Shown here in pieces: positions 2 through 40,548 of a stretch of 64,000 nt of DNA; the first letter of the stretch is position 1; every line of letters begins with the position of its first letter. The position numbers and the translations under genes are program-made. The stretch lies in NCBI GenBank assembly GCA_015233195.1, contig JADFYE010000009.1:8026-72025 (forward strand), in the 5' to 3' direction. Under the pieces are notes generated by a model. That model saw nothing but the letters and a program-made list of their open reading frames with translations. It was not told the origin of the DNA and searched no databases. This stretch comes from Candidatus Omnitrophota bacterium (GTDB lineage: Bacteria; Omnitrophota; Gorgyraeia; Zapsychrales; Zapsychraceae).

Positions 2-808
2 GTATTAACCCAGCCGCAATTAGCAGTACGTTTTATGACTGTTAAAAGTAACAAAGAACTAAACCGCGCAGTCATGGTCGGAGGTATTTTTATTTTATTA
101 ATGACTGGCGTGGCTTTTACTGTAGGTGCTTTATCAAATGCTTACTTTGTAAATAACCCGCAATTTGGAAAAATCTCGATCGCAGTTGCAGAAGGTAATA
201 TCGACAAAATCATACCTTTGTATGTTAATTCAGCTATGCCGCATTGGTTCGTGTACATTTTCATGCTAACTCTTTTAGCAGCAGCTATGTCGACCAGCAG
301 TTCTCAATTCCACTCAATGGGAACATCTTTCGGAAGAGATTTTATTGAGCGCACTTTCTTTAAAGGTCAAAAAAGCAGTCTTGGCATGACCAGGCTCGGT
401 ATAGTAATTAGTGTAATTATAACTGTTGTGTTAGGTTATAAATTACCAATAAGCGTGATAGCGGTTTCAACTGCAATATTTTTTGGAATGTGCGCCAGCA
501 TTTTCTTACCGGTATTTATCGGCACACTTTATTTTAAATGGATGACCAAAACCGGCGCGATCTGCAGTATGTTAGTCGGTCTATTTGGTTCAGCAGGATG
601 GATGTTGTTCGTACATCTAAAAGAATCCAATGCAATCGGATTTTGCAAATTCGTATTCAGTAAACCAAGTGTTGCTTCATTTCCTTGGACCGTAGTAGAC
701 CAGCTTTTTGTAATTTTACCGCTATCATTTTTAACCGCAATAATAGTTAGTTTGCTCACTAAAAAGCCTGATCAAACTCATTTAAACAATTGCTTTAAAC
801 ACATTTAA
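2..808 (+). CDS. sodium:solute symporter (SSF) family transporter, 5'-truncated by window edge
   Basis: Reading frame is open back to nt 2. '..QPQLAVRFMTVKS' resembles the SSF 'QPHIxxRFM' motif. The rest is multi-pass hydrophobic C-terminal region. Confidence 0.8.
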   Translation, partial: VLTQPQLAVRFMTVKSNKELNRAVMVGGIFILLMTGVAFTVGALSNAYFVNNPQFGKISIAVAEGNIDKIIPLYVNSAMPHWFVYIFMLTLLAAAMSTSSSQFHSMGTSFGRDFIERTFFKGQKSSLGMTRLGIVISVIITVVLGYKLPISVIAVSTAIFFGMCASIFLPVFIGTLYFKWMTKTGAICSMLVGLFGSAGWMLFVHLKESNAIGFCKFVFSKPSVASFPWTVVDQLFVILPLSFLTAIIVSLLTKKPDQTHLNNCFKHI

Positions 809-812
809 CCAA

Positions 813-860
813 AACCAACCCCGGGGGTTGTCGAATTTACGACAACCCCCGGGGTTGGTT
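813..860. terminator. perfect 21-bp GC-rich hairpin (putative terminator after the symporter gene)
   Basis: aaccaaccccgggggttgtcg (813-833), loop aattta, cgacaacccccggggttggtt (840-860) is an exact inverted repeat. No clear U-tract on either strand. Confidence 0.5.
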
Positions 861-874
861 CCGGTTCAAAACTA

Positions 875-28060: not shown

Positions 28061-30364
28061 TTATCGAATAAAAAATATTGATTTTGTCGGTGAAGCAGCT
28101 CCTTTACTATCAACCGCTTTTACCACCAACATATGAAAACCTTTGACAGTATACTGAGTAAACAACAATTTAGTATTAGCCGTTTCTACTGATTGACCAT
28201 TATCAATGCTATAAACATATTTGATCGGATCATTTTCCACATCAGTCGCAGACCAATAAACATATTGCCCAGAAACAGCCCCAGCAGAAGTTATTGTTGG
28301 AGCATTATCAATTTGGCAATTGCTGGTGGTACAAATTTGATTCGCTCCAACCCCTATAGTACCATCGCACTGCTCACTACCGCTTACGATCCCATCACCA
28401 CAAACTGATAATTGTACCAATTTACAACTTGAATCACATTTTTGATTGGCACCTACACCAGCTGAACCGTCGCACTGCTCCTTACCATTTTTTATGCCAT
28501 CCCCACAATACTCAGTGGTTTGACAACTAAGAAAATTGGTGCAAGTTGTCCCGCATTGCATTGTGCCAGCATATCCTGCAGTAGCAATACAAGACAACGA
28601 ATTACTATCACACACTTCCCCTGTTTCTATAACACCATTGCCGCAAACAGCACTCGGCGTCGTTCCTGCCCTCGCCAAAGCCGTCCACCATCCATTAGGC
28701 AGTTTCGCCTCATACACATCCACAGTGCCATCGCCGCCAAGCCAATCCGCCCCCCACCAAATTGACAAACCATCTTTGGAAATCGGAGCATATCCTTCTT
28801 TTATATAATTACCATCGTAATTGTTCCGCATATGCGCTATTTTCCATACCCGAGGATGATCCACATTATCTACCAACTCCAACATAAATACTTGATTTTG
28901 AAGACCAATATAATCCTGAGGATTGTTATAAGTTGAAACTGGTATCCACCCTTTTAAATTACGATTAATAACCCGACCAAAATGAAATCCAATCCTCCAA
29001 TTAGGATCCATATCGCCATGATAAATAACATTCATTTTATTACCATTCAAAACATTTGTAGCAGTGACCCAATCAGTACGGTCATCTTGGCAAACAAATA
29101 ACTCATTGCCATTAATATCAAAAGACCATCCTGAATGTGAAGATGAAACACAAACTTTAATTGGATTAATAAAACTAAGATCAAACGCGTACGCACCGTC
29201 GAAAACCGTGCCAGTATCCTGAGGTCTATTACCCCATTCATATGTTATTGTAATCATATTCGGATTAGAATTTGAATACGGTCTAACATATAATTTTGCC
29301 GCCGTGCTGCTGCTGCCCCTAAAATAATAATATTGACCAGGAGCAGTTAGCATTTGAGCAGGATTATCTATGTAGTCCGACGATCCCGAATATTTAATAT
29401 TTAATTGACCCGCTCTTTTTTCAAAAACTTCACCTATAGAATTACCGCTGGTATCTTCTGCAATATACCAAATATTCGCAGAATACTGAATCCAATTCGT
29501 AACATTACCATACCCACCCCAAGTGCGGTCAAAGTCTAATACAACTTTTTTCCCTGATGGAGCCATCTCAACCATATTTGGTTTTGGTATTGCATGATTA
29601 CCATTTGCGTCATAATAATCATATTTACCACCCAATCTAACATAATCAGAGACCATCAGACGCGATACAATTAAATCGGATTCCTTATCATAAACCATGA
29701 AACCCTGTATCGGATCTTGTCCATTTGTATATGGAAACGTCACCATCCACGCCCAATAGCGCGAATCCGCGGAGCCATCACCTTCAACATCCATAAATAT
29801 TTTTCCGCAATTAGTGTACTCTTTAGAAAAATCGTGGATCAATTGACTTTGTCCATTAGTTACGTCGTACTGCTTGAATTGACAACCATTAACAAAATAT
29901 AAACGATTAGGATATTTACCTGAATTATCCCATCGCATTTCACTGCTTTCCAAACTAGGAAATTCATTAACTAACTTATAGACTGTATTATCTGAGCGAT
30001 TATAAATAATCAACCTGTAATCAGTATTTTCACGGATCATAAAATATTTTGTTCCATCACTATTTTCATGTGGAAACCTGCTGTAAACTGCTCTAACATC
30101 ACCTGCTGTTCCCATATCCATAACTTGGCTTCCATCCTTACACAACGAAACCTTACCATAATGCGAATCCGAAAAACATTGATTCTTTTGCGGTTCACTG
30201 ATCTGATCTAAACCAGCAAATGTTATCGGAGTTCCTTTAGTATACGTCTCTACTGTAAAACCATTCGTAGTTTGTTGCGCAGCATCAGCATAAGAACTAA
30301 TTCCCCATGCTAAAAAAAGGGCAACACCAAAAGTGAACAATCTTGCTATAATGTTCGTGTTCAT
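28061..30364 (-). CDS. secreted protein, paralog 1: signal peptide, ~560-aa domain of unknown family, 3 cysteine-rich CGxG..CD repeats, C-terminal Ig/FN3-like domain
   Basis: Signal peptide 'FGVALFLAWGISSYADA'. Cys-rich modules at 28307-28645 (CGNGVIETGEVCD, CGDGIKNGKEQCDG.., CGDGIVSGSEQCDG..). High identity to 30779-33331. Confidence 0.9.
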   Translation of the reverse strand: MNTNIIARLFTFGVALFLAWGISSYADAAQQTTNGFTVETYTKGTPITFAGLDQISEPQKNQCFSDSHYGKVSLCKDGSQVMDMGTAGDVRAVYSRFPHENSDGTKYFMIRENTDYRLIIYNRSDNTVYKLVNEFPSLESSEMRWDNSGKYPNRLYFVNGCQFKQYDVTNGQSQLIHDFSKEYTNCGKIFMDVEGDGSADSRYWAWMVTFPYTNGQDPIQGFMVYDKESDLIVSRLMVSDYVRLGGKYDYYDANGNHAIPKPNMVEMAPSGKKVVLDFDRTWGGYGNVTNWIQYSANIWYIAEDTSGNSIGEVFEKRAGQLNIKYSGSSDYIDNPAQMLTAPGQYYYFRGSSSTAAKLYVRPYSNSNPNMITITYEWGNRPQDTGTVFDGAYAFDLSFINPIKVCVSSSHSGWSFDINGNELFVCQDDRTDWVTATNVLNGNKMNVIYHGDMDPNWRIGFHFGRVINRNLKGWIPVSTYNNPQDYIGLQNQVFMLELVDNVDHPRVWKIAHMRNNYDGNYIKEGYAPISKDGLSIWWGADWLGGDGTVDVYEAKLPNGWWTALARAGTTPSAVCGNGVIETGEVCDSNSLSCIATAGYAGTMQCGTTCTNFLSCQTTEYCGDGIKNGKEQCDGSAGVGANQKCDSSCKLVQLSVCGDGIVSGSEQCDGTIGVGANQICTTSNCQIDNAPTITSAGAVSGQYVYWSATDVENDPIKYVYSIDNGQSVETANTKLLFTQYTVKGFHMLVVKAVDSKGAASPTKSIFFIR

Positions 30365-30404: not shown

Positions 30405-30452
30405 TAAAATAAAAAAAGCCCACATCCTATGCCTCAGGCACGGAATATGGGC
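30405..30452 (-). terminator. leader (attenuator) terminator in 5'UTR of paralog 1
   Basis: Minus strand: GCCCAUAUUCCGUGCC-UGAG-GCAUAGGAUGUGGGC followed by UUUUUUUAUUUU. About 50 nt upstream of the ATG. Confidence 0.6.
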
Positions 30453-30483
30453 TTTTATAATATTCGCCACCCAAATCTTAAAT

Positions 30484-30530
30484 ACGGCAACTGGCTATCC
30501 TTTTCATGGGACCCTATAGTTTTGCCGGTA
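30484..30530 (-). promoter_or_regulatory. degenerate c-di-GMP-I aptamer remnant (3' half only)
   Basis: Minus strand 'CCGGCAAAACUAUAGGGUCCCAUGAAAAGGAUAGCCAGUUGCCG' aligns with the 3' half of the intact aptamer at 33453-33526. It lacks the GNRA hairpin and the GGGGACGCAAAGC core. Confidence 0.5.
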
Positions 30531-30648
30531 CTCAAAAAATTAAATATTAATTCGAAAACATTTTGGTAAAAAACAGAACTGAAACTGAAGTATAAAATTT
30601 TGAAAGAAACTGAATAGAAAGCTTACGCCTGCTCAAGTAGAAGTCGGA

Positions 30649-30676
30649 ATAATATCATAGGGAGACACAATGTCAA
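30649..30676 (-). promoter_or_regulatory. sigma70-like promoter for paralog 1 (TTGACA-N16-TATTAT)
   Basis: Minus strand TTGACA (30676-30671), 16-nt spacer, TATTAT (30654-30649). Confidence 0.45.
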
Positions 30677-30715
30677 GAAATAATAAAAACAATTTTTCAT
30701 AGCTCCATAAATGTT

Positions 30716-30778: not shown

Positions 30779-33331
30779 TTATCTTCTAAATGTAATTGTT
30801 TTTGAATTAGAAACAGCTCCTTTATTATCTATGGCTTTAACTGTTATTGTACGAACACCTTTTTTTGTAAATACTGCCATATATAATTTAGTAGCCGTAG
30901 TCGATACCCATTTAGCTCCATCTATACTATACAAATAAGTAATCGAATCCTTATCAGCATCTGTAGCTAACCAATAAATATATTGATTTTGAACCACCCC
31001 TAATGAAATCAGCACCGGCGCATGATTTACCACAACCTGCACCAATTGACAACTTGAATTACAAGTTTGATTAGCGCCTACACCTGCGGTACCATCGCAT
31101 TGTTCTGTTGATTGATTAACAACACTATCACCACAATACGGCAACTGTACCAATTGACAACTTGCATTACATGTTTGGTTAGCGCCTACACCAGCGGTGC
31201 CATCACATTGTTCTGTTGATTGATTAACAATACCATCACCGCAATATGACACATTAACTAACTGGCAGCTGGAATTACAAGTTTGATGAGTGCCTACACC
31301 GGCTGTTCCGTCGCATTGCTCAACACCATTTTTAATTCCATCACCGCAAAATTCTTTAGCTTGACAAGCAAGAAAACCTGTACAAACTGTACCACATTGC
31401 ATCGTCCCATTATATCCAGCAGAAGTTACACAAGTGGTCGAGTTTTGATCACATACTTCTCCAGTTTCTATGAGTCCATTACCGCAAACTGCAGCAACCG
31501 GAAGCATTGCTGTACAAGTCGCGTTACAATATCCTGCTTTTCCATTATTTGCACCACTATCACAAATTTCACTGCCTTCTTTTACTCCATTACCGCAAAC
31601 TGCAGCTGGTGGCGGAGGCGTAGTCACCGTGCCAGTTCTGGATAAAACATTCCACCATCCATAAGGTAATTTTGCTTCATATACATCAACTGTACCATCA
31701 CCGCCCATCCAATCCGCCCCCCACCAAATTGACATTCCGTCTTTTGAAATAGGAGCGTATCCTTCCTTCATATAATTACCGGCATAATTGTTACGCATAT
31801 GAGCTATTTTCCAAACCCGAGGATGATCAGCATTATCCACCAACTCCAACATAAATACTTGATTTTGTAACCCAATATAATCTTGAGTATAATTATAAGT
31901 TGAAACTGGAATCCATCCCTTTAAATCAGGATTTGTAACTCGACCGAAATGAAACCCGATCCTCCAGTTATAATCCATATCACCGTGATAAATAACGTTC
32001 ATTTTGTTACCGTTTAAAACATTAGTAGCAGTTATCCAATCTGTACGGTCATCTTGGCAAACAAATAATTCATTACCATTAATATCAAATGACCAACCAG
32101 AATGTGAAGATGAAACACAAACTTTTACCGGATTAATAAAAGTCGGATCAAAAGCATAAGCACCATCAAAAAGGGTGCCAGTATCCCGAGCTCTATCACC
32201 CCATTCATATACTAAAGATAAAGTGTTAGGATCAACCCCGGTCAGCGTCTTAACATATAATTTTTCTGAAACGCCATCTCCTCCACGGAAATGATAAAAC
32301 TGACCTAAAGTAGTTATCTTGGCTGTAGGATTATCCGTATAATCCGCCCAAACTTCACTATAATATGTTTTAGCGCCTGAACTATTTTCTTCATACACAT
32401 GACTGATCGAATTGCCATAAGTGTCAACCTGCACATACCAAATACCGCTTCCATAATATTGCCAATTAGCAGCATTTACATATCCCCCCCAGGTTCTGCT
32501 ATAATCCAACACAATTTTTTTACCAGAAGGAGCCATTTCTACCATATTAGGTTTTGGCATAGCAGCATTTCCATTTGCATCAAAGAAATCACATTTACCG
32601 CCTAACCTTTTATAATCATCAACATTTAATTTAGACACAATAATATCCGCATCTTTATCATAAACAATAAATTCACGGATCGCGCTCTGCTGCCCATCAT
32701 ACGGCCAAGTAACCATCCATCCCCAATAACGCGAATCAGCAGAACTATCTCCTTCAACGTCCATGAATATTTTTCCACAACCAGCATACTCATTTGAAAA
32801 ATCATGGATCAATTGACTTTGTCCATTCGTTATATCGTACTGTTTGAATTGACAACCTTCGACATAGTATAAACGATTCGGATATTTTCCTGAATAATCC
32901 CACCGCATCTCTATTCCTTCCAAGCTGGGAAATTCATTAACTATTTTATAAACCGTATTATCTGAACGGTTATAAATAATCAACCTATAATCAGTATTTT
33001 CACGGATCACAAAATATTTTGTTCCATCACTATTTTCATGTGGAAACCTGCTATAAACCGCTCTTATGTCCCCCTGTGTTCCCATATCCGTTACCTGACT
33101 ATCATCCTTACATAACTCCACGTTCCCATAATGTGAATCAGTAAAACATTCATTTTTTTGTGGCTCACTGATCTGATCCATACCAGCAAATGTTATTGGA
33201 GTTCCTTTAGTGTAAGTCTCTACTGTAAAACCATTCGTAGTTTGTTGTGCATAAGCATAAGAACCAATTCCCCATGCTAAAAAAAGGGCAACGCCAAAGG
33301 TGAACAATCTTGCTACAATGTTCGTGTTCAT
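30779..33331 (-). CDS. secreted protein, paralog 2: same architecture with 5 cysteine-rich repeats
   Basis: Start placed at 'MNTNIVARLF' (ATG 33331, SD-like GGAUGGGG upstream), matching paralog 1. The track ORF's extra 48 codons run through the leader terminator. Cys-rich modules at 31031-31597. Confidence 0.9.
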   Translation of the reverse strand: MNTNIVARLFTFGVALFLAWGIGSYAYAQQTTNGFTVETYTKGTPITFAGMDQISEPQKNECFTDSHYGNVELCKDDSQVTDMGTQGDIRAVYSRFPHENSDGTKYFVIRENTDYRLIIYNRSDNTVYKIVNEFPSLEGIEMRWDYSGKYPNRLYYVEGCQFKQYDITNGQSQLIHDFSNEYAGCGKIFMDVEGDSSADSRYWGWMVTWPYDGQQSAIREFIVYDKDADIIVSKLNVDDYKRLGGKCDFFDANGNAAMPKPNMVEMAPSGKKIVLDYSRTWGGYVNAANWQYYGSGIWYVQVDTYGNSISHVYEENSSGAKTYYSEVWADYTDNPTAKITTLGQFYHFRGGDGVSEKLYVKTLTGVDPNTLSLVYEWGDRARDTGTLFDGAYAFDPTFINPVKVCVSSSHSGWSFDINGNELFVCQDDRTDWITATNVLNGNKMNVIYHGDMDYNWRIGFHFGRVTNPDLKGWIPVSTYNYTQDYIGLQNQVFMLELVDNADHPRVWKIAHMRNNYAGNYMKEGYAPISKDGMSIWWGADWMGGDGTVDVYEAKLPYGWWNVLSRTGTVTTPPPPAAVCGNGVKEGSEICDSGANNGKAGYCNATCTAMLPVAAVCGNGLIETGEVCDQNSTTCVTSAGYNGTMQCGTVCTGFLACQAKEFCGDGIKNGVEQCDGTAGVGTHQTCNSSCQLVNVSYCGDGIVNQSTEQCDGTAGVGANQTCNASCQLVQLPYCGDSVVNQSTEQCDGTAGVGANQTCNSSCQLVQVVVNHAPVLISLGVVQNQYIYWLATDADKDSITYLYSIDGAKWVSTTATKLYMAVFTKKGVRTITVKAIDNKGAVSNSKTITFRR
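31031..31351 (-). repeat. in-frame tandem repeat (108+108+105 bp) encoding three CGDG..EQCDGTAGVG..C..SCQLV modules
   Basis: Units 31031-31138 and 31139-31246 encode near-identical 36-aa modules (YCGDSVVNQSTEQCDGTAGVGANQTCNSSCQLVQVV / YCGDGIVNQSTEQCDGTAGVGANQTCNASCQLVQLP). The third unit is 31247-31351. Confidence 0.85.
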
Positions 33332-33369: not shown

Positions 33370-33421
33370 CAAAAAATAAAAAAGGCCCAAATCCTATGCT
33401 CACAGGCACAGAATATGGACC
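33370..33421 (-). terminator. leader terminator (expression platform of the proximal riboswitch)
   Basis: Minus strand: GGUCCAUAUUCUGUGCC-UGUGA-GCAUAGGAUUUGGGCC, ~16 pairs with one mismatch, followed by UUUUUUAUUUUUU. Confidence 0.65.
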
Positions 33422-33452
33422 TTTGTAATATTCACTAATAAATTTTTGCACA

Positions 33453-33526
33453 CGGCAACTGGCTATCCTTTTCATAGGACCCTCTAGCTTTGCGTCCCCG
33501 CCTTACGACGGGTTTGCCTTTATCGT
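33453..33526 (-). promoter_or_regulatory. c-di-GMP-I (GEMM-I) riboswitch aptamer, proximal copy
   Basis: Minus-strand RNA is ACGAUAAAGGCAAACCCGUCGUAAGGCGGGGACGCAAAGCUAGAGGGUCCUAUGAAAAGGAUAGCCAGUUGCCG. It has the hallmark GGCAAACC, a GNRA (GUAA) hairpin, then GGGACGCAAAGC. Confidence 0.8.
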
Positions 33527-33537
33527 TTTATCAGACC

Positions 33538-33572
33538 GAAAAAAAGCTCATTCCGGATAATCAGAATGAGCT
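33538..33572 (-). terminator. intrinsic terminator between the two aptamers (expression platform of the distal riboswitch)
   Basis: Minus strand: AGCUCAUUC (33572-33564), 10-nt loop, GAAUGAGCU (33553-33545), a perfect 9-bp stem followed by UUUUUUC (the stem's last U extends this to a run of seven). Confidence 0.7.
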
Positions 33573-33596
33573 AAAATATTCTCGCTTCATCGATCT

Positions 33597-33720
33597 GATT
33601 CGGTAACCGGCTGTCCTGCCTTTCAGGACCCTTGGCTTTGCCTGTGAACCACTTAGATTCACAGCCCTGTACCCTACTGGTTCAGGGGTCCCCACCTTAC
33701 GATGGGTTTGCCTTTATCGT
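33597..33720 (-). promoter_or_regulatory. c-di-GMP-I-like riboswitch aptamer, distal copy, with 46-nt insertion in the core
   Basis: 5' part ACGAUAAAGGCAAACCCAUCGUAAGGUGGGGAC. 3' part GCAAAGCCAAGGGUCCUGAAAGGCAGGACAGCCGGUUACCGAAUC. The two parts are separated by two 23-nt hairpins (33642-33687). Confidence 0.7.
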
Positions 33721-33797
33721 CAAACACAACACAAACTTCTATTTCAAGTATAAACTAAACTAGCTCCAAAAAACAAGTACCCTATAATAAAAAATTT

Positions 33798-34691
33798 TTA
33801 CTTAATTACCGTCGGAGCAGCGTTCTTCACTGATTTTAATTGTTGAATCAACTTTTTAAATCCTTCAGCTATAGGACTTTTAGGATATTTTTCTACAAAT
33901 GCCTGATACACTGTAATTGCCGCATCATAATCTTTTAGTTCACGTACTGCAATTGCATTAATACGCTGAACTAAAGCCTGTATCTGCATCGGCAATAAAG
34001 CCCCTTTACTGCCATAATCCGAAAGTATCTTTCCATAATTTTGCAAAGCATCATTCCAACGGTTCTGAGCAAGATAACAATCAGACATCATATTCAATGC
34101 TGCTAATCCTGCCATCTTATCCGCGTAATCATTTGCAATTTTCTTATAAAAAGAAATAGCCTTATCATATGCTTCTACAGTTTTTTGAAAATCATTAGTC
34201 TTTTTATAATAATTTCCTATATACCCAGGCACTACCAAACCAGCTTTAGTTATCGGATATTCCTTATTAGTTCTTTCATAAAAACTCACAGCTTGTTCCC
34301 ATTTACCCGAAAGTTCATAAGTACGACCTATAGCAAATAAAGCTTCCGCGCACGTATCCGCACTTCCCTTATAAACATCGAGTATTTTTGTAAACTCTTC
34401 CCGAGCCAAATCATTCTGTTTTCGAATCAAATACAAATTACCTAAAGAAAAATAAACTTCCCTGATCAAAACATGTCCAGGATACTTTTCTATCATTTTT
34501 TTGTGAGCAAGGATAACCTTATCAATAGCATTTTCCGGTACAATTTGCGGATCCTTAGCAATATCAGCGTATTGCTTCTCCAAATTCCAGATTTCACGCT
34601 CTAAAGAATAATTTCCTTTGTAACCTAAAACTGCCAAAACTACAAAAATCACTACCAGAATAGCAACATAAAATTTAATAGTATTTTTCAT
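33798..34691 (-). CDS. TPR-repeat protein with N-terminal membrane anchor
   Basis: N-terminal TM (YVAILVVIFVVLAVLGY) followed by several 34-aa TPR-like repeats (..A...Y.KA...Y.....). Confidence 0.75.
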   Translation of the reverse strand: MKNTIKFYVAILVVIFVVLAVLGYKGNYSLEREIWNLEKQYADIAKDPQIVPENAIDKVILAHKKMIEKYPGHVLIREVYFSLGNLYLIRKQNDLAREEFTKILDVYKGSADTCAEALFAIGRTYELSGKWEQAVSFYERTNKEYPITKAGLVVPGYIGNYYKKTNDFQKTVEAYDKAISFYKKIANDYADKMAGLAALNMMSDCYLAQNRWNDALQNYGKILSDYGSKGALLPMQIQALVQRINAIAVRELKDYDAAITVYQAFVEKYPKSPIAEGFKKLIQQLKSVKNAAPTVIK

Positions 34692-34696
34692 ATTTA

Positions 34697-35563
34697 TTAT
34701 TCCTTATTTGAAAGAAAAAATTTAGTTAAAGCTGTATAAATAATAGCATCAATTATCCCAGTCATTATATAGCCTACCGCGATTATCCAAACCCGCATTT
34801 CCTGCGAAGTAACATTTGCTATTTCATTTATACTAGCCCGCATTACCAAAAATGGAATATAAAATATTGTAGGAATTAAAACAATCAATAAAACTTTTCC
34901 AAAATTTTTAAATAATAATTTAAAATTTGATATCAATGCCGAAAAAAGATTCTTTTTAGCTATGACTAAAAACGGCACAAAAAAAGCGAATAATGCTGTA
35001 GCAAAACATCCTAATAACAAATTAAAATAAGGCGCACCGTATATTATCACAGCTTTTAACATAAAAAACATTCCGCTGGTTGACTTAATCTTAAATGCCC
35101 TAGCCATTAATAAACTATAACTTTGGTTAAGAAATAAAAATACAACCAAAAATAAAATTGCAGCTACTAAAACATGAAAATATTTTGGTAAAGCAATTCT
35201 ACGAGCATGACCCAATTCAGCTTTTTGATTTTGAACTACTAAACTTAAAGCAACAGCAGAAACTGCCATAAGAAAATTACCCGCCAATAAAAAAAATGCT
35301 ACTTGTAACGGATAGATCATTTTAGGTAATAAAAATAAATTATTTGGATAGTGCAAAAAAACTACTCCCCATAATTTTTGAATAACTGGTCCCATAAAAT
35401 TTACCAATGGAAAACGGGTAGAAAAATAACAAAATTCTAATATTAATAATTCAAAAAATATAATAGTAATGAACGGAACTGAAACTGCAGGATTTTTAAG
35501 AAGCAGTGAAACCGCCTCTCCTAAAAGCGGAATTACTCCGTTTTTTTGAGATTGATTTTCCAT
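34697..35563 (-). CDS. polytopic membrane protein of unknown function
   Basis: About 7-8 hydrophobic segments. Sits within the EPS locus. Confidence 0.6.
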   Translation of the reverse strand: MENQSQKNGVIPLLGEAVSLLLKNPAVSVPFITIIFFELLILEFCYFSTRFPLVNFMGPVIQKLWGVVFLHYPNNLFLLPKMIYPLQVAFFLLAGNFLMAVSAVALSLVVQNQKAELGHARRIALPKYFHVLVAAILFLVVFLFLNQSYSLLMARAFKIKSTSGMFFMLKAVIIYGAPYFNLLLGCFATALFAFFVPFLVIAKKNLFSALISNFKLLFKNFGKVLLIVLIPTIFYIPFLVMRASINEIANVTSQEMRVWIIAVGYIMTGIIDAIIYTALTKFFLSNKE

Positions 35564-35645
35564 AATTACTCTCCCATTAATGGTTTAGAACATGAAGTAT
35601 AAAAACTGTTAGATAGTATCTCACTACTAAAACAAACTGTCAACC

Positions 35646-35680
35646 TGAAAAAAAAGGAGACAGATATTATCTGTCTCCTT
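35646..35680 (-). terminator. intrinsic terminator after the PEP-CTERM protein gene
   Basis: Minus strand: AAGGAGACAGAU / AUCUGUCUCCUU, a 12-bp stem (35654-35680), followed by UUUUUUUU. Confidence 0.65.
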
Positions 35681-35709
35681 AATACTAAATATGTAAAATA
35701 ATCTTAATA

Positions 35710-36225
35710 TTATACTTTTCTACGTAAACCAAAAAGTCCCACTAAACCACTGCCCATTAATAATAATGAAATCGGTTCAGGTACAACACTAGAAGCATTT
35801 GCATTTACAGTTAATGTAGAATCTTCAAACCAAAAATTACCCCAGGTTCTGGTAATCGTTACATTTAACAAACCATCATTTTGTAAATATGCCGCATTAA
35901 CTAAATAAGAATATGTCCCTGTATCAACTTCAAAATTTGCGACATCATTATTTCCATCAAAACTAATTGTTGCATTTTCAGTAGCAATCCAATCAAAACC
36001 CTGATCCCAAAAACGTATACTAATATTCGCTGATGTAATAGTATTTGTAGCTGGATTAAATCCATGATCCAAAATGTTATGTGTAAAGGTGTACGATGGA
36101 TTAAACATTGATAAAGCAACATCCGGCTCAGGATCAACCACATCAACAAAAGTTAATGCATGTGCTTGAGTCGCAATCAAAAGCCCTGCGCCAAACAATA
36201 TAACCATTAATAATAATTTCTTCAT
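35710..36225 (-). CDS. PEP-CTERM sorting-domain secreted protein
   Basis: Signal peptide. C-terminus 'VPEPISLLLMGSGLVGLFGLRRKV' is PEP motif + TM + basic cluster. Confidence 0.9.
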   Translation of the reverse strand: MKKLLLMVILFGAGLLIATQAHALTFVDVVDPEPDVALSMFNPSYTFTHNILDHGFNPATNTITSANISIRFWDQGFDWIATENATISFDGNNDVANFEVDTGTYSYLVNAAYLQNDGLLNVTITRTWGNFWFEDSTLTVNANASSVVPEPISLLLMGSGLVGLFGLRRKV

Positions 36226-36266
36226 TTCTTTCTCCTTTTTAATATTAATTTTTTTTAATTAAAATT

Positions 36267-37118
36267 TTAATGTGCGCCTTCGCCAGTTATTACTACTCTG
36301 AAGGTGCGTAACAAAATTTTTATATCCGTCCACAAACAAACCTTCTTAATATAGAGAAGATCATATTTTACTTTTTTACGAACATCGTCTTTAGTCTCAT
36401 CGTATTTATGCCATACCTGCGCCATACCAGTTAAACCCGGCTTAATATACAAACGTTTATAATAATCCGGGATTTCTTTTTTAAACTCTTCCACAAAAAC
36501 CGGACGTTCAGGACGCGGTCCGATCAAAGACATTTCCCCTTTTAAAATATTTACTAATTGCGGAAGTTCATCAATATGCGCTGTTCTCAAAAATTTTCCA
36601 AAAGGAATAATTCTATCATCATTCTGTGATGCCCAAACCGGACCAGTAGCCTTCTCAGCATTCGCTTTCATAGTGCGGAATTTATATATCTCAAAAAGTT
36701 CTCCGTCTTTACCTACCCGGGTTTGAGAATAAAATATTGGTCCCCGAGAAACTAATTTAATCAAAACTGCAGTAAATAAAAATAATGGTGACAAAATTAT
36801 AAAACCCAAGATAGACGCTAGAATATCAAATACACGTTTTGTAATATGATAAGTCCGACGAATGATCGAAACTATCATGCCTAAAACGCCAGTTCCAAAC
36901 AAAGCTAAAGTTGAAGGTTCAGGAGCGCGGGAACGATCTGCTACTGGTAAATGTTTAGTTATTTCCGCTTTATGATGGACTACAGATATTGTATGATCTT
37001 GTTTAGGATTTACAGAAGACAAGCCTGCTTTTGCAGAAACAGCAGCAAAGCTGATTGCAAAAAATAAAACTAAAATTGTAAAGAAACGTACAAATCTCAT
37101 ATTTTTCTTATTTCTCAT
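36267..37118 (-). CDS. priming sugar-phosphate transferase (bacterial sugar transferase family) with N-terminal signal peptide and embedded PEP-CTERM-like segment
   Basis: 'KRVFDILASILG..SPLF...IKL.SRGPIFYSQTRVG..G..F.IYKFRTM' core. Start uncertain: the track ORF reaches 37184, and M at 37118 gives a signal-peptide-like N-terminus. Confidence 0.85.
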   Translation of the reverse strand: MRNKKNMRFVRFFTILVLFFAISFAAVSAKAGLSSVNPKQDHTISVVHHKAEITKHLPVADRSRAPEPSTLALFGTGVLGMIVSIIRRTYHITKRVFDILASILGFIILSPLFLFTAVLIKLVSRGPIFYSQTRVGKDGELFEIYKFRTMKANAEKATGPVWASQNDDRIIPFGKFLRTAHIDELPQLVNILKGEMSLIGPRPERPVFVEEFKKEIPDYYKRLYIKPGLTGMAQVWHKYDETKDDVRKKVKYDLLYIKKVCLWTDIKILLRTFRVVITGEGAH

Positions 37119-37245
37119 TAAATTATCATTTTGTGTGAAAGTTAAAAATGTAATTAAATATAACATATTTAATGCGAAAATCAAGTAAACCTTTGGGACT
37201 ACCTTAGAAGACCAATAAATAGTTAAACCATTAAAAATAAAAGAC

Positions 37246-37878
37246 TTACGGCAAGTACTGCTTTATATGCGGAAATATATTTTTACCAAAATTTTTAATT
37301 CTTTCCACAGCTGCCTCATCAGGCTCCTCATTTTTAACTATAGTTGATATTCTTATTAACGCACTGCTTGATGGTTTTTTCAAAAATGATTTTACCGCTA
37401 TTAAAATTTGCTGCTGCCAATAATTAGGCGTAAACTGATCCCCTACCTTAAACCAATAACAGAAAAACTGAGTCTGTCCTGCACGTTCAGATTTCAATCT
37501 ATTAACATTTATCTGATACCTTCCCTCGCCTATCGTATCAATTTTAGAATCAGTTATAGTCGACCCTCCGCCGGTATAACAAATTTCAGGGGGATGTGAT
37601 ACTTTTCGATTATGCTGTGAATACACCATGAATAAAAAAACCTCATCACCAGCAGGATTAAAATATTTACGCACAAAAACATTATCCGTCTCGAGTATCG
37701 CCTTATCTTCTTTAGATACCGGAATCTCATCCGATTTCCATTCTCCAATTACCTTAGGAAACAAATTAATATCAACTGTATCCTTTTGAGCATAAGTAGC
37801 AAAATATATATTAAACGATAATACGCCAGCATAAATCAATCCCGCCAATATCAAAACAAAAGACCATTTAATTTTCAT
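37246..37878 (-). CDS. EpsI family exosortase-associated protein
   Basis: N-terminal TM. 'FPKVIGEWKS..' and 'SHPPEICYTGGG' patterns typical of EpsI. ATG at 37878 overlaps the exosortase stop (ATGA). Confidence 0.8.
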   Translation of the reverse strand: MKIKWSFVLILAGLIYAGVLSFNIYFATYAQKDTVDINLFPKVIGEWKSDEIPVSKEDKAILETDNVFVRKYFNPAGDEVFLFMVYSQHNRKVSHPPEICYTGGGSTITDSKIDTIGEGRYQINVNRLKSERAGQTQFFCYWFKVGDQFTPNYWQQQILIAVKSFLKKPSSSALIRISTIVKNEEPDEAAVERIKNFGKNIFPHIKQYLP

Positions 37879-38693
37879 TCTAATAACCTCCCTACTGCAT
37901 ATAACAATACAAAAGCAACTGCAAAAATAAAAAATCCTGACGCGTCGTGCACAAAACCTTTTGTATATTGTGAACCCCATATTTCAGCGACTGAAGATAA
38001 AAAAACCACCCGTATAACATTAGTAGCAACTGCAATTGGTATAGTCGATAAAAATATTACCCACTTTTTAAATCTAGTAGTAACCGTCATATAAGCAAAT
38101 ATTCCGCCCAACGCCAACAATGATATTAATGAACGCAATCCACTGCACACATCGTCTACCACTACATAAGCGTGACGCATATATATCATACTTCCTTCTC
38201 GTAACGCCGGAATACCAATATGGTTTAAAATATAAGCTGCAATTTTAGCTGCCAACATTTTCATGCGGAAACTTATATTTGTAATAATAACCAGCGGCAA
38301 CGGGAACATAAAAAGTAAAAAAACTATCGGCATCCAAATCTTACGCAAAATTTTCCATCCATAAAAATAAAGTATCAACCCGATCAAAACCGTGAACATG
38401 GAAAATCCACCGACAAAATAAACCCGGAATAACGAAGAAAAAATATAAATTAACAAACCTAATATAACAATTACCGTCCCCCAAAATGATGGAGCAGCCG
38501 GCATCTCTTTTAACTCATCTTTTTTCTGCCAGATAAGATACACAGACACAAATGGTATTAATATGCCGTGACTGTAATAAGAATCCCGAGAGAACCATCG
38601 ATCCCACATCCATAAAATTATAGGAACATAGGCGAGAATAAATAATACGAAAGCGATAAAAATCTGCCAGTTCTTTTTCATTAAATTATTCAT
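37875..38693 (-). CDS. exosortase (EpsH/Xrt family)
   Basis: 'W..RW...DSYYSHG.LIP' N-terminus. 8-TM layout. Catalytic-Cys region 'DDVCSGLRSL'. ATG at 38693 overlaps the GT2 stop. Confidence 0.88.
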   Translation of the reverse strand: MNNLMKKNWQIFIAFVLFILAYVPIILWMWDRWFSRDSYYSHGILIPFVSVYLIWQKKDELKEMPAAPSFWGTVIVILGLLIYIFSSLFRVYFVGGFSMFTVLIGLILYFYGWKILRKIWMPIVFLLFMFPLPLVIITNISFRMKMLAAKIAAYILNHIGIPALREGSMIYMRHAYVVVDDVCSGLRSLISLLALGGIFAYMTVTTRFKKWVIFLSTIPIAVATNVIRVVFLSSVAEIWGSQYTKGFVHDASGFFIFAVAFVLLYAVGRLLE

Positions 38694-39793
38694 GCCTTCG
38701 CCTTTTCCCAGGTTACTTGTTGCTGAGCAGTTAAAAAACGCCACAAACCCTCTAATGCGGCAAAATTTAAAACACAAAACATATACGAGACAGGGCAAAA
38801 AACCGCACTCCCATAAAACGCAATTTGACTCAATAAGATAAACAAATAAACCGGATCCCTCGTTACTAAAAAGATATTGAGGACAAATAAGAATATCATC
38901 AAAAACGGCATTTGCAACCGTAAAAATTTATGTGAAAAAAGTTGAATAGCTATCGGACTTTTTGCGGGGTTGAATAAAAATGGGAATAATGCGAATATCT
39001 GAAAATTACCTGCCAAAGTCCTTACTTTACGACGATGCTCCTCTTCAGGACTTTGCGCCACCTTGTCAAAAGCTTTAGCAGACACATCAAAGATCGCGCG
39101 ATAGCCTTGCTGAATTATGCAAAAAGGAATAAACATGTCGTCTAAAACTATATTTACAGGAAGACTCTTGAACAAACCTCTACGAATCGCATATATAGCT
39201 CCAGTAGCACCCATTATTGAATGGATCCGCCCCTCTTGAGCGCGTATAAATTTTTCATAGCTCCAGTATGCTCCCACACTTTCCGAAACTCCTCTGCCGT
39301 CACTTTCTAATATTAATTCGCCGCTTACACATCCAACTTTAGGATCAGCAAAATTTGCAACCAACTCCCTTATTACATCAATTTCAAAACGCTGGCGTGC
39401 GTCGCAAAACAGCACAATATCGTTCTTCGCCTCTTTTAACAAATCATTTAAAACTGACATTTTCCCCCTGCGTTCCCTATAATCAAAAAACTTCACCCGA
39501 TTATCTTTGAATTGATAGGATAGTTCTACAGTAGCATCATCTGAACCGTCTGAGCCAACTAATATTTCAAGTTTATCTTCTGGATAATCTAATGATAATA
39601 AGTTGGATAATTTTTCAGCAATATGCTTTTCTTCATTCCAAACTGACATGACAATTGAAACTGATGGACGCAAAGAATAATCTTTATGGACTATTTTATT
39701 TGAAAAGAGTGCCACTACCCACAAAATCGCCGGATACAAAAAATAACAATAAATTATTAAACCCAAACATAACCAAAATAAAAAAGTTAACAT
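38690..39793 (-). CDS. glycosyltransferase family 2 (membrane-associated)
   Basis: 'VSIVMSVWNEE', 'VGSDGSDD', 'CDARQ' GT-A motifs, with C-terminal TM segments. Confidence 0.85.
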   Translation of the reverse strand: MLTFLFWLCLGLIIYCYFLYPAILWVVALFSNKIVHKDYSLRPSVSIVMSVWNEEKHIAEKLSNLLSLDYPEDKLEILVGSDGSDDATVELSYQFKDNRVKFFDYRERRGKMSVLNDLLKEAKNDIVLFCDARQRFEIDVIRELVANFADPKVGCVSGELILESDGRGVSESVGAYWSYEKFIRAQEGRIHSIMGATGAIYAIRRGLFKSLPVNIVLDDMFIPFCIIQQGYRAIFDVSAKAFDKVAQSPEEEHRRKVRTLAGNFQIFALFPFLFNPAKSPIAIQLFSHKFLRLQMPFLMIFLFVLNIFLVTRDPVYLFILLSQIAFYGSAVFCPVSYMFCVLNFAALEGLWRFLTAQQQVTWEKAKA

Positions 39794-39798
39794 AAAAT

Positions 39799-40548
39799 TT
39801 ATCTTTTCTTTAAAATCATTCCTCTAATTTTATCATATCCTCTATCTCCAAAAACTCTCCTCACCAGCGTCTTTATCATAGTAAATAACTTCATTTTAAA
39901 ACCGATCTTCCCGGTAACTGCCATGACAAAATCTTCTATAGTCCAAACGCCCTTAACTGCAATGCGCTCAAAACAACCTTCGCTAAACCCAACCCGTTTA
40001 TCTGAAACAAAAATTTGTTTATATCCAGCTTTCTTTGCTGCAGCAATCACTTTATCGTCATAAAATCCCCTGGGAATAGATATTGAATCAATAGAACAGC
40101 GTAATTTACTTTCAAGCATAAATTTTGATTTGGTTAATTCTTCAAATAAAACTTCTGTAGATAATCCAGTTAATATCTTATGTGTAAGACCATGCGAACC
40201 AATATTAAAACCAACCATTCTCATAACCGCCAAATCTTCCCATGACAAATAACCATCGCGACCAATCCTATCAACTATTACAAAAAAGTATGCGGATGCT
40301 TTTATTTCTTTTAAAAACGGCACTACTAATTCAAAATTGTTTTTCTCTCCGTCATCAAACGTTAAAACAATATTTTTATTATCCGCGTTTAAATTTACAG
40401 TAAAACGATACGAGTTATGTTGCAACCAATTCAAATGTTCTTTAAACGCGTCAATTTTAACATCATATAAATCAGCGCCTCTCTCCCGATCAACAAAGCC
40501 AGAACCCATTTCAGGAACTATACCGTGGTACATTAAAATTTTAGACAT
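39799..40548 (-). CDS. polysaccharide deacetylase (CE4/NodB family)
   Basis: 'LTFDDGEKNN' and 'GSHGLTH' NodB motifs. Confidence 0.85.
   Translation of the reverse strand: MSKILMYHGIVPEMGSGFVDRERGADLYDVKIDAFKEHLNWLQHNSYRFTVNLNADNKNIVLTFDDGEKNNFELVVPFLKEIKASAYFFVIVDRIGRDGYLSWEDLAVMRMVGFNIGSHGLTHKILTGLSTEVLFEELTKSKFMLESKLRCSIDSISIPRGFYDDKVIAAAKKAGYKQIFVSDKRVGFSEGCFERIAVKGVWTIEDFVMAVTGKIGFKMKLFTMIKTLVRRVFGDRGYDKIRGMILKKR

What the first reader, a model, noticed from the sequence alone, without database searches (positions are those of the whole stretch)
33370..33776. Two complete c-di-GMP-I (GEMM-I) riboswitches in tandem, each with its own terminator, in the leader of a secreted-protein gene
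- Proximal aptamer: the minus-strand RNA from 33526 down to 33453 is ACGAUAAAGGCAAACCCGUCGUAAGGCGGGGACGCAAAGCUAGAGGGUCC...GCCAGUUGCCG. As I recall the V. cholerae Vc2 aptamer (..GGGCAAACCAUUCGAAAGAGUGGGACGCAAAGCCUCCGG...GGGGUUACCGAUGG), this matches the conserved core almost position for position: the GGCAAACC box, a GNRA-capped hairpin, then GGGACGCAAAGC.
- Distal aptamer: a second copy (33720 down to 33597) starts with the same ACGAUAAAGGCAAACCC and ends ..GCAAAGCCAAGGGUCCUGAAAGGCAGGACAGCCGGUUACCGA. Its 3' tail resembles Vc2's GGUUACCGA.
- Expression platforms: each aptamer is followed by a stem-loop plus U-run (33538-33572; 33370-33421). That makes two serial transcription-attenuation units before the ATG at 33331.
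- Upstream context: I saw no terminator between the TPR gene (stop at 33798) and the first aptamer. Only a weak candidate promoter is present (TTGTTT-N18-TATACT, 33776-33747), so read-through from the EPS operon may also be gated.
- Ligand and direction: both copies keep G in the GGCAAACC box, so I favour c-di-GMP over 3',3'-cGAMP, but weakly. For the distal unit, the aptamer tail CCGG..AAUCAGA can pair with UCUGAUUAUCCGG in the terminator's left arm and loop. That suggests ligand binding favours termination (an OFF switch). This is a by-eye inference only.
Basis: partly seen in the sequence, partly recalled or inferred. Interest (0 to 1): 0.8.

Follow-up and report, generated by a model that had tools for sequence, protein, structure and literature searches.

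The report
Tandem c-di-GMP riboswitches, one expanded
Two c-di-GMP-sensing RNA switches sit in series ahead of a secreted-protein gene in an Omnitrophota genome; such tandems are common, but the upstream copy carries a conserved two-hairpin insertion next to its ligand pocket that recurs in about 87 related RNAs and is absent from the curated family model.

Summary
The elements exist at the stated coordinates. The proximal aptamer (33450-33527, minus strand) is a canonical c-di-GMP-I aptamer (Rfam 72.2 bits). The distal one (33598-33721) fails every Rfam threshold (at most 32.5 bits), so it is not a standard "complete" copy. It equals the proximal copy plus a clean 46-nt insertion between GGGGAC and GCAAAGC, in the conserved core.

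The insertion is not damage. Pattern scans found 87 distinct aptamers with an insertion at the same site, mostly in Omnitrophota and Planctomycetota MAGs. It folds as two flush hairpins (H1, H2) with strong covariation (94-98% paired; all 10 pairs change on both sides). A covariance model built without the window scores the distal copy at 82 bits.

Both copies keep G20/A47/C92, so c-di-GMP is the likely ligand. Both are followed by intrinsic terminators. The distal unit has a near-isoenergetic antiterminator, consistent with an OFF switch. I could not resolve how the proximal aptamer couples to its terminator.

Tandem c-di-GMP-I riboswitches are well known (347 doublets published), so the headline claim is ordinary. 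The expanded aptamer architecture appears undescribed and is moderately interesting.

The parts
33598..33721 (-). Distal c-di-GMP-I aptamer of the expanded (H1/H2-bearing) type
   Evidence: R1 (model built without the window) 82.1 bits, E 7e-21, full length. Rfam RF03167 gives only 32.5 bits, below the gathering score. G20, A47, C92 and the C44 equivalent are present by alignment.
33665..33687 (-). H1, first inserted hairpin (CCCUGAACCAGUAGGGUACAGGG)
   Evidence: Clean 46-nt gap relative to the proximal copy. Folds as a hairpin. Homologous H1 is 96-98% paired with all 5 pairs covarying.
33642..33664 (-). H2, second inserted hairpin (CUGUGAAUCUAAGUGGUUCACAG), flush against GCAAAGC
   Evidence: Homologous H2 is 94-96% paired with all 5 pairs covarying.
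33594..33600 (-). AAUCAGA: 5' strand of the predicted distal antiterminator; its UCAGA can alternatively extend P1 by pairing with UUUGA at 33724-33720
   Evidence: Nascent-transcript fold; constrained folds give -74.6 versus -77.0 versus -75.9 kcal/mol. In-silico inference only.
33538..33572 (-). Distal intrinsic terminator T1 (11-bp stem 33572-33545, loop AUUAUC, U7 33544-33538); UCUGAUU at 33565-33559 is the antiterminator partner
   Evidence: Terminator scan; hairpin -15.6 kcal/mol; fold z-score -3.0.
33450..33527 (-). Proximal canonical c-di-GMP-I aptamer (no insertion)
   Evidence: RF03167 72.2 bits versus gathering score 59, E 3.8e-15. R1 50.8 bits with H1/H2 deleted. Has GCAAAGC (A47) where the GGC-variant consensus has GCGAAGC (alignment).
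33371..33424 (-). Proximal intrinsic terminator T2 (long bulged stem 33424-33381, then U6-A-U6)
   Evidence: Fold -30 kcal/mol, z -4.9; hairpin alone -24.1 kcal/mol. Not listed by the simple terminator scan, which reported only T1 on this strand in the leader.
30779..33331 (-). Regulated gene: 850-aa secreted protein with signal peptide and C-terminal Cys-rich repeats (HQL25_04600, Ca. Omnitrophica MAG)
   Evidence: TIGR02232 repeat, E 8e-7; no Pfam hit.
30411..30536 (-). Leader of the downstream paralogue (gene 28061-30364): 3' half of a proximal-type aptamer (30536-30482) plus an intact terminator (30456-30418, U-run 30417-30411); the 5' half of the aptamer is absent
   Evidence: R1 partial hit; sequence and alignment A4 at about 90% identity from GCAAA onward, with compensatory changes in the terminator stem; hairpin -22.2 kcal/mol.

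Best explanation
The leader of a secreted Cys-rich-repeat protein gene in a Candidatus Omnitrophica genome carries two c-di-GMP-I riboswitches in series, each with its own intrinsic terminator. Transcription must therefore pass two successive c-di-GMP-dependent checkpoints, which is the known 'pseudo-cooperative' tandem design that sharpens the response. The proximal aptamer is canonical. The distal aptamer belongs to a recurrent expanded architecture: two flush hairpins (H1, H2) are inserted between the C of the GAC loop, which makes the universally conserved interhelical pair, and the G-C pairs under the ligand pocket. This converts the P2 internal loop into a multi-helix junction. The ligand-contacting nucleotides are unchanged, so I infer that c-di-GMP is still the ligand and that H1/H2 act as a peripheral scaffold that tunes folding or affinity. 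For the distal unit, ligand-stabilised P1 (extended by UUUGA/UCAGA) would withhold AAUCAGA from the antiterminator, so terminator T1 forms: an OFF switch. Shown: the aptamer identities, the insertion, its conservation and covariation, and the terminators. Inferred: the ligand, the role of H1/H2, and the OFF direction. Unresolved: how the proximal aptamer controls T2.
For: Proximal: 72.2 bits on a c-di-GMP-I clan model. Distal: proximal plus an exact 46-nt insert, and 82.1 bits, E 7e-21, on model R1 built from 10 inserted aptamers of other organisms. Same-site insertion in 87 distinct aptamers. Two end-anchored hairpins in 40 of 50 inserts versus 5.1 +/- 2.1 in shuffles. H1 98.4% and 95.9% paired, H2 93.8% and 95.8% paired, all 10 pairs with double-sided changes in two alignments; slid-register controls 28-47%. 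G20/A47/C92 and the interhelical C are present in both copies (roles from PMC4744006 and PMC5888326). 74 of 87 inserted aptamers keep [A/G]CC[G/A] at the C92 site, which the search pattern did not force. 52% have a terminator-like site within 140 nt versus 7% of random windows. Downstream genes are pilins, PilM, T2SS-F, a subtilase, response regulators and secreted proteins. Terminators. Distal conformers lie within 2.4 kcal/mol of each other. Tandem c-di-GMP-I with separate platforms is an established design (PMC9481103, PMC4759541).
Against: No binding or termination data exist for any inserted aptamer. The distal copy fails both Rfam gathering scores. G20 and A47 were fixed by my search patterns, so their conservation across the subclass is not independent evidence. 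The covariation counts come from model-fitted alignments, which lean towards the structure. The distal antiterminator is short (7 + 4 bp) and AU-rich. For the proximal unit, no antiterminator within 9-13.6 kcal/mol of T2 was found, and the same terminator persists in the paralogue leader, which has only half an aptamer. T2 may therefore act without ligand control. No convincing promoter was found. An OFF switch on a secreted protein next to an EPS/exosortase locus runs against the usual expectation that c-di-GMP induces matrix components.
Confidence: 0.72

Rival explanations
1. The expanded (H1/H2) aptamer has altered ligand specificity or markedly different affinity. The window's pair would then be a two-input logic gate or a two-threshold sensor, not two equivalent c-di-GMP sensors.
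For: The insertion lies between the interhelical-pair C and the G-C pairs that floor the pocket, 3 nt from A47. Small changes in this pocket are known to retarget GEMM-I to c-AMP-GMP (PMC9481103). The architecture is lineage-restricted and conserved. Heterotypic canonical-plus-inserted tandems recur (window; L133).
Against: G20, A47 and C92 are canonical in the window copy. Gene contexts are typical of c-di-GMP. Homotypic inserted-plus-inserted tandems also exist (L082), which fits a same-ligand design.
Confidence: 0.15
2. Only the distal unit is a working riboswitch. The proximal terminator T2 is a largely constitutive attenuator, and the proximal aptamer is vestigial or acts by another route.
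For: No competitive antiterminator for T2 (+9 to +13.6 kcal/mol). T2 is very stable (-24.1 kcal/mol). The paralogue's leader keeps T2, with compensatory changes, but only half an aptamer.
Against: The proximal aptamer is a near-perfect match to the family model (72.2 bits), with a compensatory A-U to G-C change in P2 relative to the distal copy, which argues for ongoing selection. Riboswitch decisions are kinetic, so equilibrium energies can mislead.
Confidence: 0.2
3. The distal copy is a decayed aptamer disrupted by an inserted hairpin repeat (a pseudo-riboswitch).
For: It fails the Rfam thresholds, and the insertion is inside the conserved core.
Against: The insert is unique in the window. 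87 aptamers from several phyla carry structurally equivalent, covarying insertions at the same site. The distal copy ranks mid-table among them (82 bits, 20th of 54). All conserved core positions are intact.
Confidence: 0.04
4. The units are ON switches: c-di-GMP promotes read-through and induces the secreted protein.
For: c-di-GMP usually induces adhesins and matrix proteins, and the gene sits beside a PEP-CTERM/exosortase EPS locus. Relatives such as L133 use an ON design.
Against: In the window neither terminator overlaps its aptamer: each 5' arm starts about 25 nt after P1. That is the layout of an antiterminator-mediated OFF switch, and the distal conformer energies fit OFF.
Confidence: 0.25

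Closest known systems
Tandem c-di-GMP-I riboswitches with separate expression platforms (347 doublets and 12 triplets, Sherlock et al. 2022, PMC9481103; Bc3-5 triple tandem of Bacillus thuringiensis, PMC4759541)
   Same: Two aptamers of the same class in one 5' leader, each followed by its own terminator, upstream of a secreted or surface protein gene. The expected effect is a sharper (more digital) response.
   Different: Here the two aptamers differ in architecture (expanded plus canonical), and the host is an uncultured Omnitrophota lineage. No experimental data exist.
Vc2 c-di-GMP-I aptamer of Vibrio cholerae (structural reference)
   Same: P1/P2/P3 three-helix core, GNRA-capped P2, G20/A47/C92 ligand contacts, and the interhelical C-G pair.
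   Different: The distal copy has two extra helices between C44 and G45, making a multi-helix junction. Vc2 and the Rfam consensus (87 positions) have nothing there.
c-di-GMP-I-GGC variant (Rfam RF03167)
   Same: It is the best-scoring Rfam model for both window copies.
   Different: The model consensus has GCGAAGC (G at the A47 position). Both window copies have GCAAAGC, so they have the canonical G/A/C pocket and are not members of the variant.
c-AMP-GMP (GEMM-Ib) riboswitches
   Same: Same fold and clan.
   Different: They typically carry a changed pocket nucleotide, which from memory is A at position 20. Both window copies keep G.
Peripheral-extension subclasses of other riboswitches, e.g. 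cobalamin (analogy, from memory)
   Same: Lineage-specific extra helices grafted on a conserved ligand-binding core.
   Different: In cobalamin riboswitches the extensions are known to affect selectivity. For H1/H2 no function has been tested.

Membership tests
c-di-GMP-I riboswitch (GEMM-I, RF01051 / clan CL00126) | Covariance-model score at or above the curated gathering score | tested here: met
   Proximal copy: 72.2 bits versus 59 on RF03167. One lower-scoring clan match, most likely RF01051, was also above threshold and left out.
c-di-GMP-I riboswitch (GEMM-I, RF01051 / clan CL00126) | Same score criterion, applied to the distal copy | tested here: not met
   At most 32.5 bits versus 35 (RF01051) and 59 (RF03167). 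The shortfall is explained by the 46-nt insert, for which the model has no positions.
c-di-GMP-I riboswitch (GEMM-I, RF01051 / clan CL00126) | P1, P2 (GNRA-capped) and P3 helices in the consensus arrangement, supported by covariation | tested here: met
   Both copies align end to end to R1. P1, P2 and P3 are 88-99% paired with double-sided changes across 54 and 86 distinct sequences. Both P2 loops are GUAA.
c-di-GMP-I riboswitch (GEMM-I, RF01051 / clan CL00126) | Ligand-contact nucleotides G20, A47, C92 and the interhelical C (C44) with its G partner in the P3 bulge | tested here: met
   AAAGGCAAACC, GAC, GCAAAGC, the AG bulge and [A/G]CCG are present in both copies. Roles are taken from PMC4744006 and PMC5888326.
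c-di-GMP-I riboswitch (GEMM-I, RF01051 / clan CL00126) | Binds c-di-GMP and changes expression in response | not testable with these tools
   Needs in-line probing or ITC, plus transcription assays.
c-di-GMP-I-GGC variant (RF03167) | G instead of A at the A47 position (model consensus GACGCGAAgC) | tested here: not met
   Both copies read GACGCAAAGC or GAC[insert]GCAAAGC (alignment).
c-AMP-GMP riboswitch (GEMM-Ib) | Altered pocket nucleotide at position 20 (A instead of G; the position is from memory, the principle) | tested here: not met
   Both copies have G in AAAGGCAAACC.
Tandem riboswitches with multiple expression platforms (same ligand) | Two aptamers of one class in one leader, each followed by its own expression platform | tested here: met
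   Order is aptamer, T1, aptamer, T2, RBS, ATG.
Expanded (H1/H2) c-di-GMP-I architecture, defined here | Two flush, covarying hairpins inserted between GAC and GCAAAGC | tested here: met
   The distal copy scores 82.1 bits on R1, which was built without it, with H1 and H2 aligned. Family support.

The most novel reading that the evidence does not exclude
H1/H2-bearing c-di-GMP-I aptamers are an undescribed structural subclass, a multi-helix junction adjoining the ligand pocket, largely confined to Omnitrophota, Planctomycetota and neighbouring candidate phyla. The extra domain changes ligand affinity or selectivity, or adds a second recognition surface. Heterotypic tandems such as the one in this window would then act as two-threshold or two-input sensors rather than simple repeats.
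Probability: 0.3. Interest if true: 0.65.

Novelty: new variant of a known kind. Interest (0 to 1): 0.45.

Why it matters
The tandem arrangement itself adds only another member to the commonest class of tandem riboswitches. The useful result is the expanded aptamer.

1. Standard annotation under-detects it. In this sample, 6 of 19 such aptamers, and the window's distal copy, fall below the Rfam threshold. Those that pass do so by mis-threading. c-di-GMP regulons in Omnitrophota and Planctomycetota are therefore under-counted.

2. A conserved two-helix graft 3 nt from A47, right after the universally conserved interhelical C, is a natural experiment on how much the GEMM-I core tolerates. It may reveal a way to tune affinity or specificity.

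3. It gives a handle on c-di-GMP signalling (pili, secreted proteins, proteases) in uncultured, partly host-dependent lineages where no genetics exist.

Tried and rejected
1. Orthologous leaders via protein homologues. The nearest outside homologues (42-47% identity; L001-L003) have 50-100 nt leaders without riboswitches, so the leader is not conserved with the gene.
2. A strict tandem pattern scan of metagenomes (inserted aptamer, then a second aptamer 84-114 nt later) found nothing. Tandems were instead found by running R1 on loci from the general pattern.
3. One literature search was swamped by 'Gemmata' through prefix matching, and the PNAS 2017 variant paper is not held. The meaning of 'GGC' was therefore read from the RF03167 consensus plus memory.
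4. Alignment A3 misaligned H1 and was dropped in favour of A2.
5. My first constrained fold used the wrong ViennaRNA symbol and was uninformative; it was redone, where the short AUAUUC constraints (proximal and paralogue) left those bases unpaired rather than pairing them upstream, so the +13.6 kcal/mol proximal value and the +2.4 kcal/mol distal value, whose output structures show the upstream pairing, are the firmer numbers.
6. The idea that the insert is a mobile or repeated element was rejected, because there is a single copy in the window.
7. I looked by eye for kissing complementarity between the H1 and H2 loops in the window-like subtype. It was not consistent, so I make no claim.
8. 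I checked other near-matches to AAAGGCAAACC in the window (18328, 22632 and others). R1 finds no aptamer there.

Full report
WHAT IS THERE. On the minus strand, between the stop of a TPR gene (33798) and the ATG at 33331, lie two GEMM-I-like elements, each followed by a hairpin and a U-run. A full-window Rfam scan at curated thresholds reports only one riboswitch: 33450-33527, 72.2 bits on RF03167 (c-di-GMP-I-GGC, gathering score 59), E 3.8e-15. One lower-scoring match from the same clan was left out. At relaxed thresholds the distal element (33598-33721) appears at only 32.5 bits. That is below 59, and below the 35 bits of RF01051 (value).

WHY THE DISTAL COPY FAILS. A pairwise alignment shows that the distal element equals the proximal element plus one clean 46-nt insertion (33687-33642) between GGGGAC and GCAAAGC. 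Otherwise the cores match closely; the P2 stem differs by a compensatory A-U to G-C change. The insert folds into two hairpins and occurs only once in the window.

[quoted passage not shown] That paper's numbering offsets (G12 = G20, A39 = A47, C36 = C44) place this C three nucleotides 5' of A47. It is the C of GAC. The insertion therefore sits exactly between C44 and G45, next to the binding pocket.

IS THE INSERTION DAMAGE OR DESIGN? Protein homologues of the regulated gene did not help, because their leaders are short and carry no riboswitch. I then scanned one genome per GTDB species for AAGGCAAACC-N8-24-GGGAC-N20-50-GCAAAGC. This gave 106 stretches against my estimate of about 36 by chance. 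About 54 are real inserted aptamers, 20 are canonical aptamers with a chance second GCAAAGC, and about 34 are noise. A second scan of metagenomes added 86 stretches. In total there are 87 distinct inserted aptamers.

In 40 of 50 inserts there are two end-anchored hairpins with outer stems of at least 4 bp, nearly always with no linker and no dangling nucleotides. Shuffled inserts give 5.1 +/- 2.1.

I built a covariance model, R1, from ten inserted aptamers of other organisms, excluding the window. The window's distal copy scores 82.1 bits (E 7e-21) end to end, with H1 and H2 aligned. The proximal copy scores 50.8 bits with H1/H2 deleted.

On the model-derived alignments, H1 is 98.4% paired (genomes) and 95.9% (metagenomes), and H2 is 93.8% and 95.8%. 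All ten pairs show changes on both sides. Sliding the register drops pairing to 28-47%. These alignments are fitted to the model, so the counts lean towards the structure. The anchored analysis does not use the model and agrees.

Features not forced by my search pattern also hold:
- P1 covaries (CG with CCG, UG with CCA).
- 74 of 87 keep [A/G]CC[G/A] at the C92 site.
- 52% are followed by a terminator-like site within 140 nt, versus 7% of random windows.
- Downstream genes encode pilins, PilM, a T2SS-F protein, a subtilase, response regulators and signal-peptide proteins. That is a typical c-di-GMP regulon.

Of the 48 genome loci, 27 are labelled Omnitrophota/Omnitrophica and 16 Planctomycetia/Planctomycetales. 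The rest include Ratteibacteria and Auribacterota. The window itself comes from a Ca. Omnitrophica MAG.

IS THE ARCHITECTURE ALREADY CAPTURED? Partly. 13 of 19 inserted aptamers in 18 loci pass RF01051 at 37.7-50.3 bits, and 6 do not. However, the 87-position model has no positions for H1/H2. On L108 it reaches 50.3 bits by pairing P2's 5' strand with H2's 3' strand, hiding 42 nt as a loop and deleting GAC. Full-text searches found no paper describing such an insertion, or any riboswitch analysis in Omnitrophota. This is absence of evidence in an incomplete library, and I could not inspect the Rfam seed.

LIGAND. Both window copies read AAAGGCAAACC ... GAC ... GCAAAGC ... [A/G]CCG, which is the canonical G20/A47/C92 pocket. 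The GGC model wins on score, but its consensus has GCGAAGC where the window has GCAAAGC. The copies are therefore canonical, not GGC variants. They also lack the pocket change typical of c-AMP-GMP sensors. c-di-GMP is the best inference for both. For the expanded copy it is untested.

EXPRESSION PLATFORMS. T1 is an 11-bp stem at 33572-33545 with U7 (-15.6 kcal/mol). T2 is a long bulged stem at 33424-33381, followed by U6-A-U6 (-24.1 kcal/mol). Neither overlaps its aptamer.

For the distal unit, folding the nascent transcript pairs AAUCAGA (33600-33594) with UCUGAUU (33565-33559). Three conformers are nearly isoenergetic:
- terminator: -77.0 kcal/mol
- antiterminator, with a CCGG/CCGG extension that forms spontaneously: -74.6 kcal/mol
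- extended P1 (UUUGA 33724-33720 with UCAGA 33598-33594) plus terminator: -75.9 kcal/mol

For the proximal unit I found no antiterminator within 9-13.6 kcal/mol of T2, so its coupling is unresolved. A related tandem (L133, canonical then inserted) uses ON-type platforms in which the terminator's 5' arm is the aptamer's own 3' strand. Direction is therefore not fixed in this family.

CONTEXT. Upstream is a PEP-CTERM/exosortase-type polysaccharide locus (EpsI-like DUF3485, a sugar transferase, a PEP-CTERM protein, a TPR protein). The regulated 850-aa protein has a signal peptide and Cys-rich TIGR02232 repeats but no PEP-CTERM tail. No terminator separates the TPR gene from the distal aptamer, and no good sigma-70-type promoter is present, so read-through from upstream is possible.

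COMPARISON AND NOVELTY. Tandem c-di-GMP-I riboswitches with separate platforms are the most numerous tandem riboswitch type known (347 doublets and 12 triplets, PMC9481103; a characterised triplet, PMC4759541). The headline claim is thus a new member of a known kind. The distal copy's H1/H2 expansion is conserved, covarying and lineage-restricted, adjoins the pocket and is not in the curated consensus. It is best called a new variant of a known kind. Tandems that include inserted aptamers recur: L082 is inserted then inserted, L133 is canonical then inserted, and L126 and L148 are probable.

VERDICT. Interest is moderate (0.45): low for the tandem, and higher for the expanded aptamer class, which deserves a binding test.

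Noticed in passing
window 30405-30680 (minus strand), upstream of gene 28061-30364: The downstream paralogue (767 aa, 66% identical) has its own leader. It copies the proximal unit only from GCAAA onward (P3, P1 3' strand, terminator, RBS, ATG; about 90% identity, with compensatory changes in the terminator stem). The 5' half of the aptamer is missing. The homology breakpoint is exactly the GAC|GCAAA site where the distal copy carries H1/H2. This could be a constitutive attenuator, a decaying riboswitch, or a sign that this site is prone to rearrangement.
   Followed up: partly
window 30649-30676 (minus strand): A strong sigma-70-like promoter (TTGACA-16-TATTAT with an extended -10 TG, 11 of 12 matches) precedes the paralogue's leader. 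By eye, a terminator-like hairpin (GAGGGAUG..CGUCCCUCUUUU, about 30765-30725) follows the first gene. The two paralogues would then be separate transcription units.
   Followed up: partly
window 33590-33599 with 33531-33540 (minus strand): In the whole-leader fold, a 10-bp helix (AUCAGAUCGA with UCGGUCUGAU) brackets terminator T1. It overlaps the 5' strand (CUGAUAAA, 33535-33528) of a helix predicted to enclose the proximal aptamer, so the two units may cross-talk after read-through.
   Followed up: no
L108 3194-3317 and other inserted aptamers: Rfam RF01051 reaches its threshold on inserted aptamers by mis-threading: P2's 5' strand is paired to H2's 3' strand and GAC is deleted. Automated annotations of these RNAs would therefore give wrong structures, and 6 of 19 in this sample are missed altogether.
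   Followed up: yes
L010 2588-2742, L078 4395-4563, L079 2117-2265, L059 4146-4262: A sub-architecture in which the first GCAAAGC lies in the loop of a long H2 (CCCCGCAGGAUAGAUUU-GCAAAGC-AAAUCUUGCGGGG) and the real core CAAAGC follows. The insert is therefore longer than the search pattern implied.
   Followed up: no
many loci, e.g. L005, L043, L045, L068, L095: H1 is often GUCCC-GNRA-GGGAC. This repeats the GGGAC that ends P2 and carries a second GNRA tetraloop. H1 may have arisen by partial duplication of P2, or may provide an extra tetraloop contact.
   Followed up: no
L133 6577-6900: A metagenomic tandem of a canonical aptamer followed by an inserted one. Each terminator's 5' arm is the aptamer's own 3' strand (GCCGAGCUGCC...GGCAGUUCGGC-U6), which is an ON design and the opposite layout to the window.
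   Followed up: partly
L131/L172 and L179: Arrays of canonical c-di-GMP-I aptamers turned up among the pattern hits: a same-strand run of three in L179, and in L131/L172 two adjacent aptamers with a third about 1.1 kb away.
   Followed up: no
window 806-867 (minus strand): A sub-threshold Rfam hit to a plant microRNA precursor model (mir-3817, 40.6 bits versus 90, E 1.5e-4). It is presumably just a stable hairpin and was not examined.
   Followed up: no
window 34697-40548 (minus strand): The upstream genes form a PEP-CTERM/exosortase-type locus (DUF3485/EpsI-like, a Bac_transf sugar transferase with a PEP-CTERM-like segment, a small PEP-CTERM protein, a TPR protein). The 288-aa ORF at 34697-35563 has no family hit in Pfam or NCBIfam.
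   Followed up: partly
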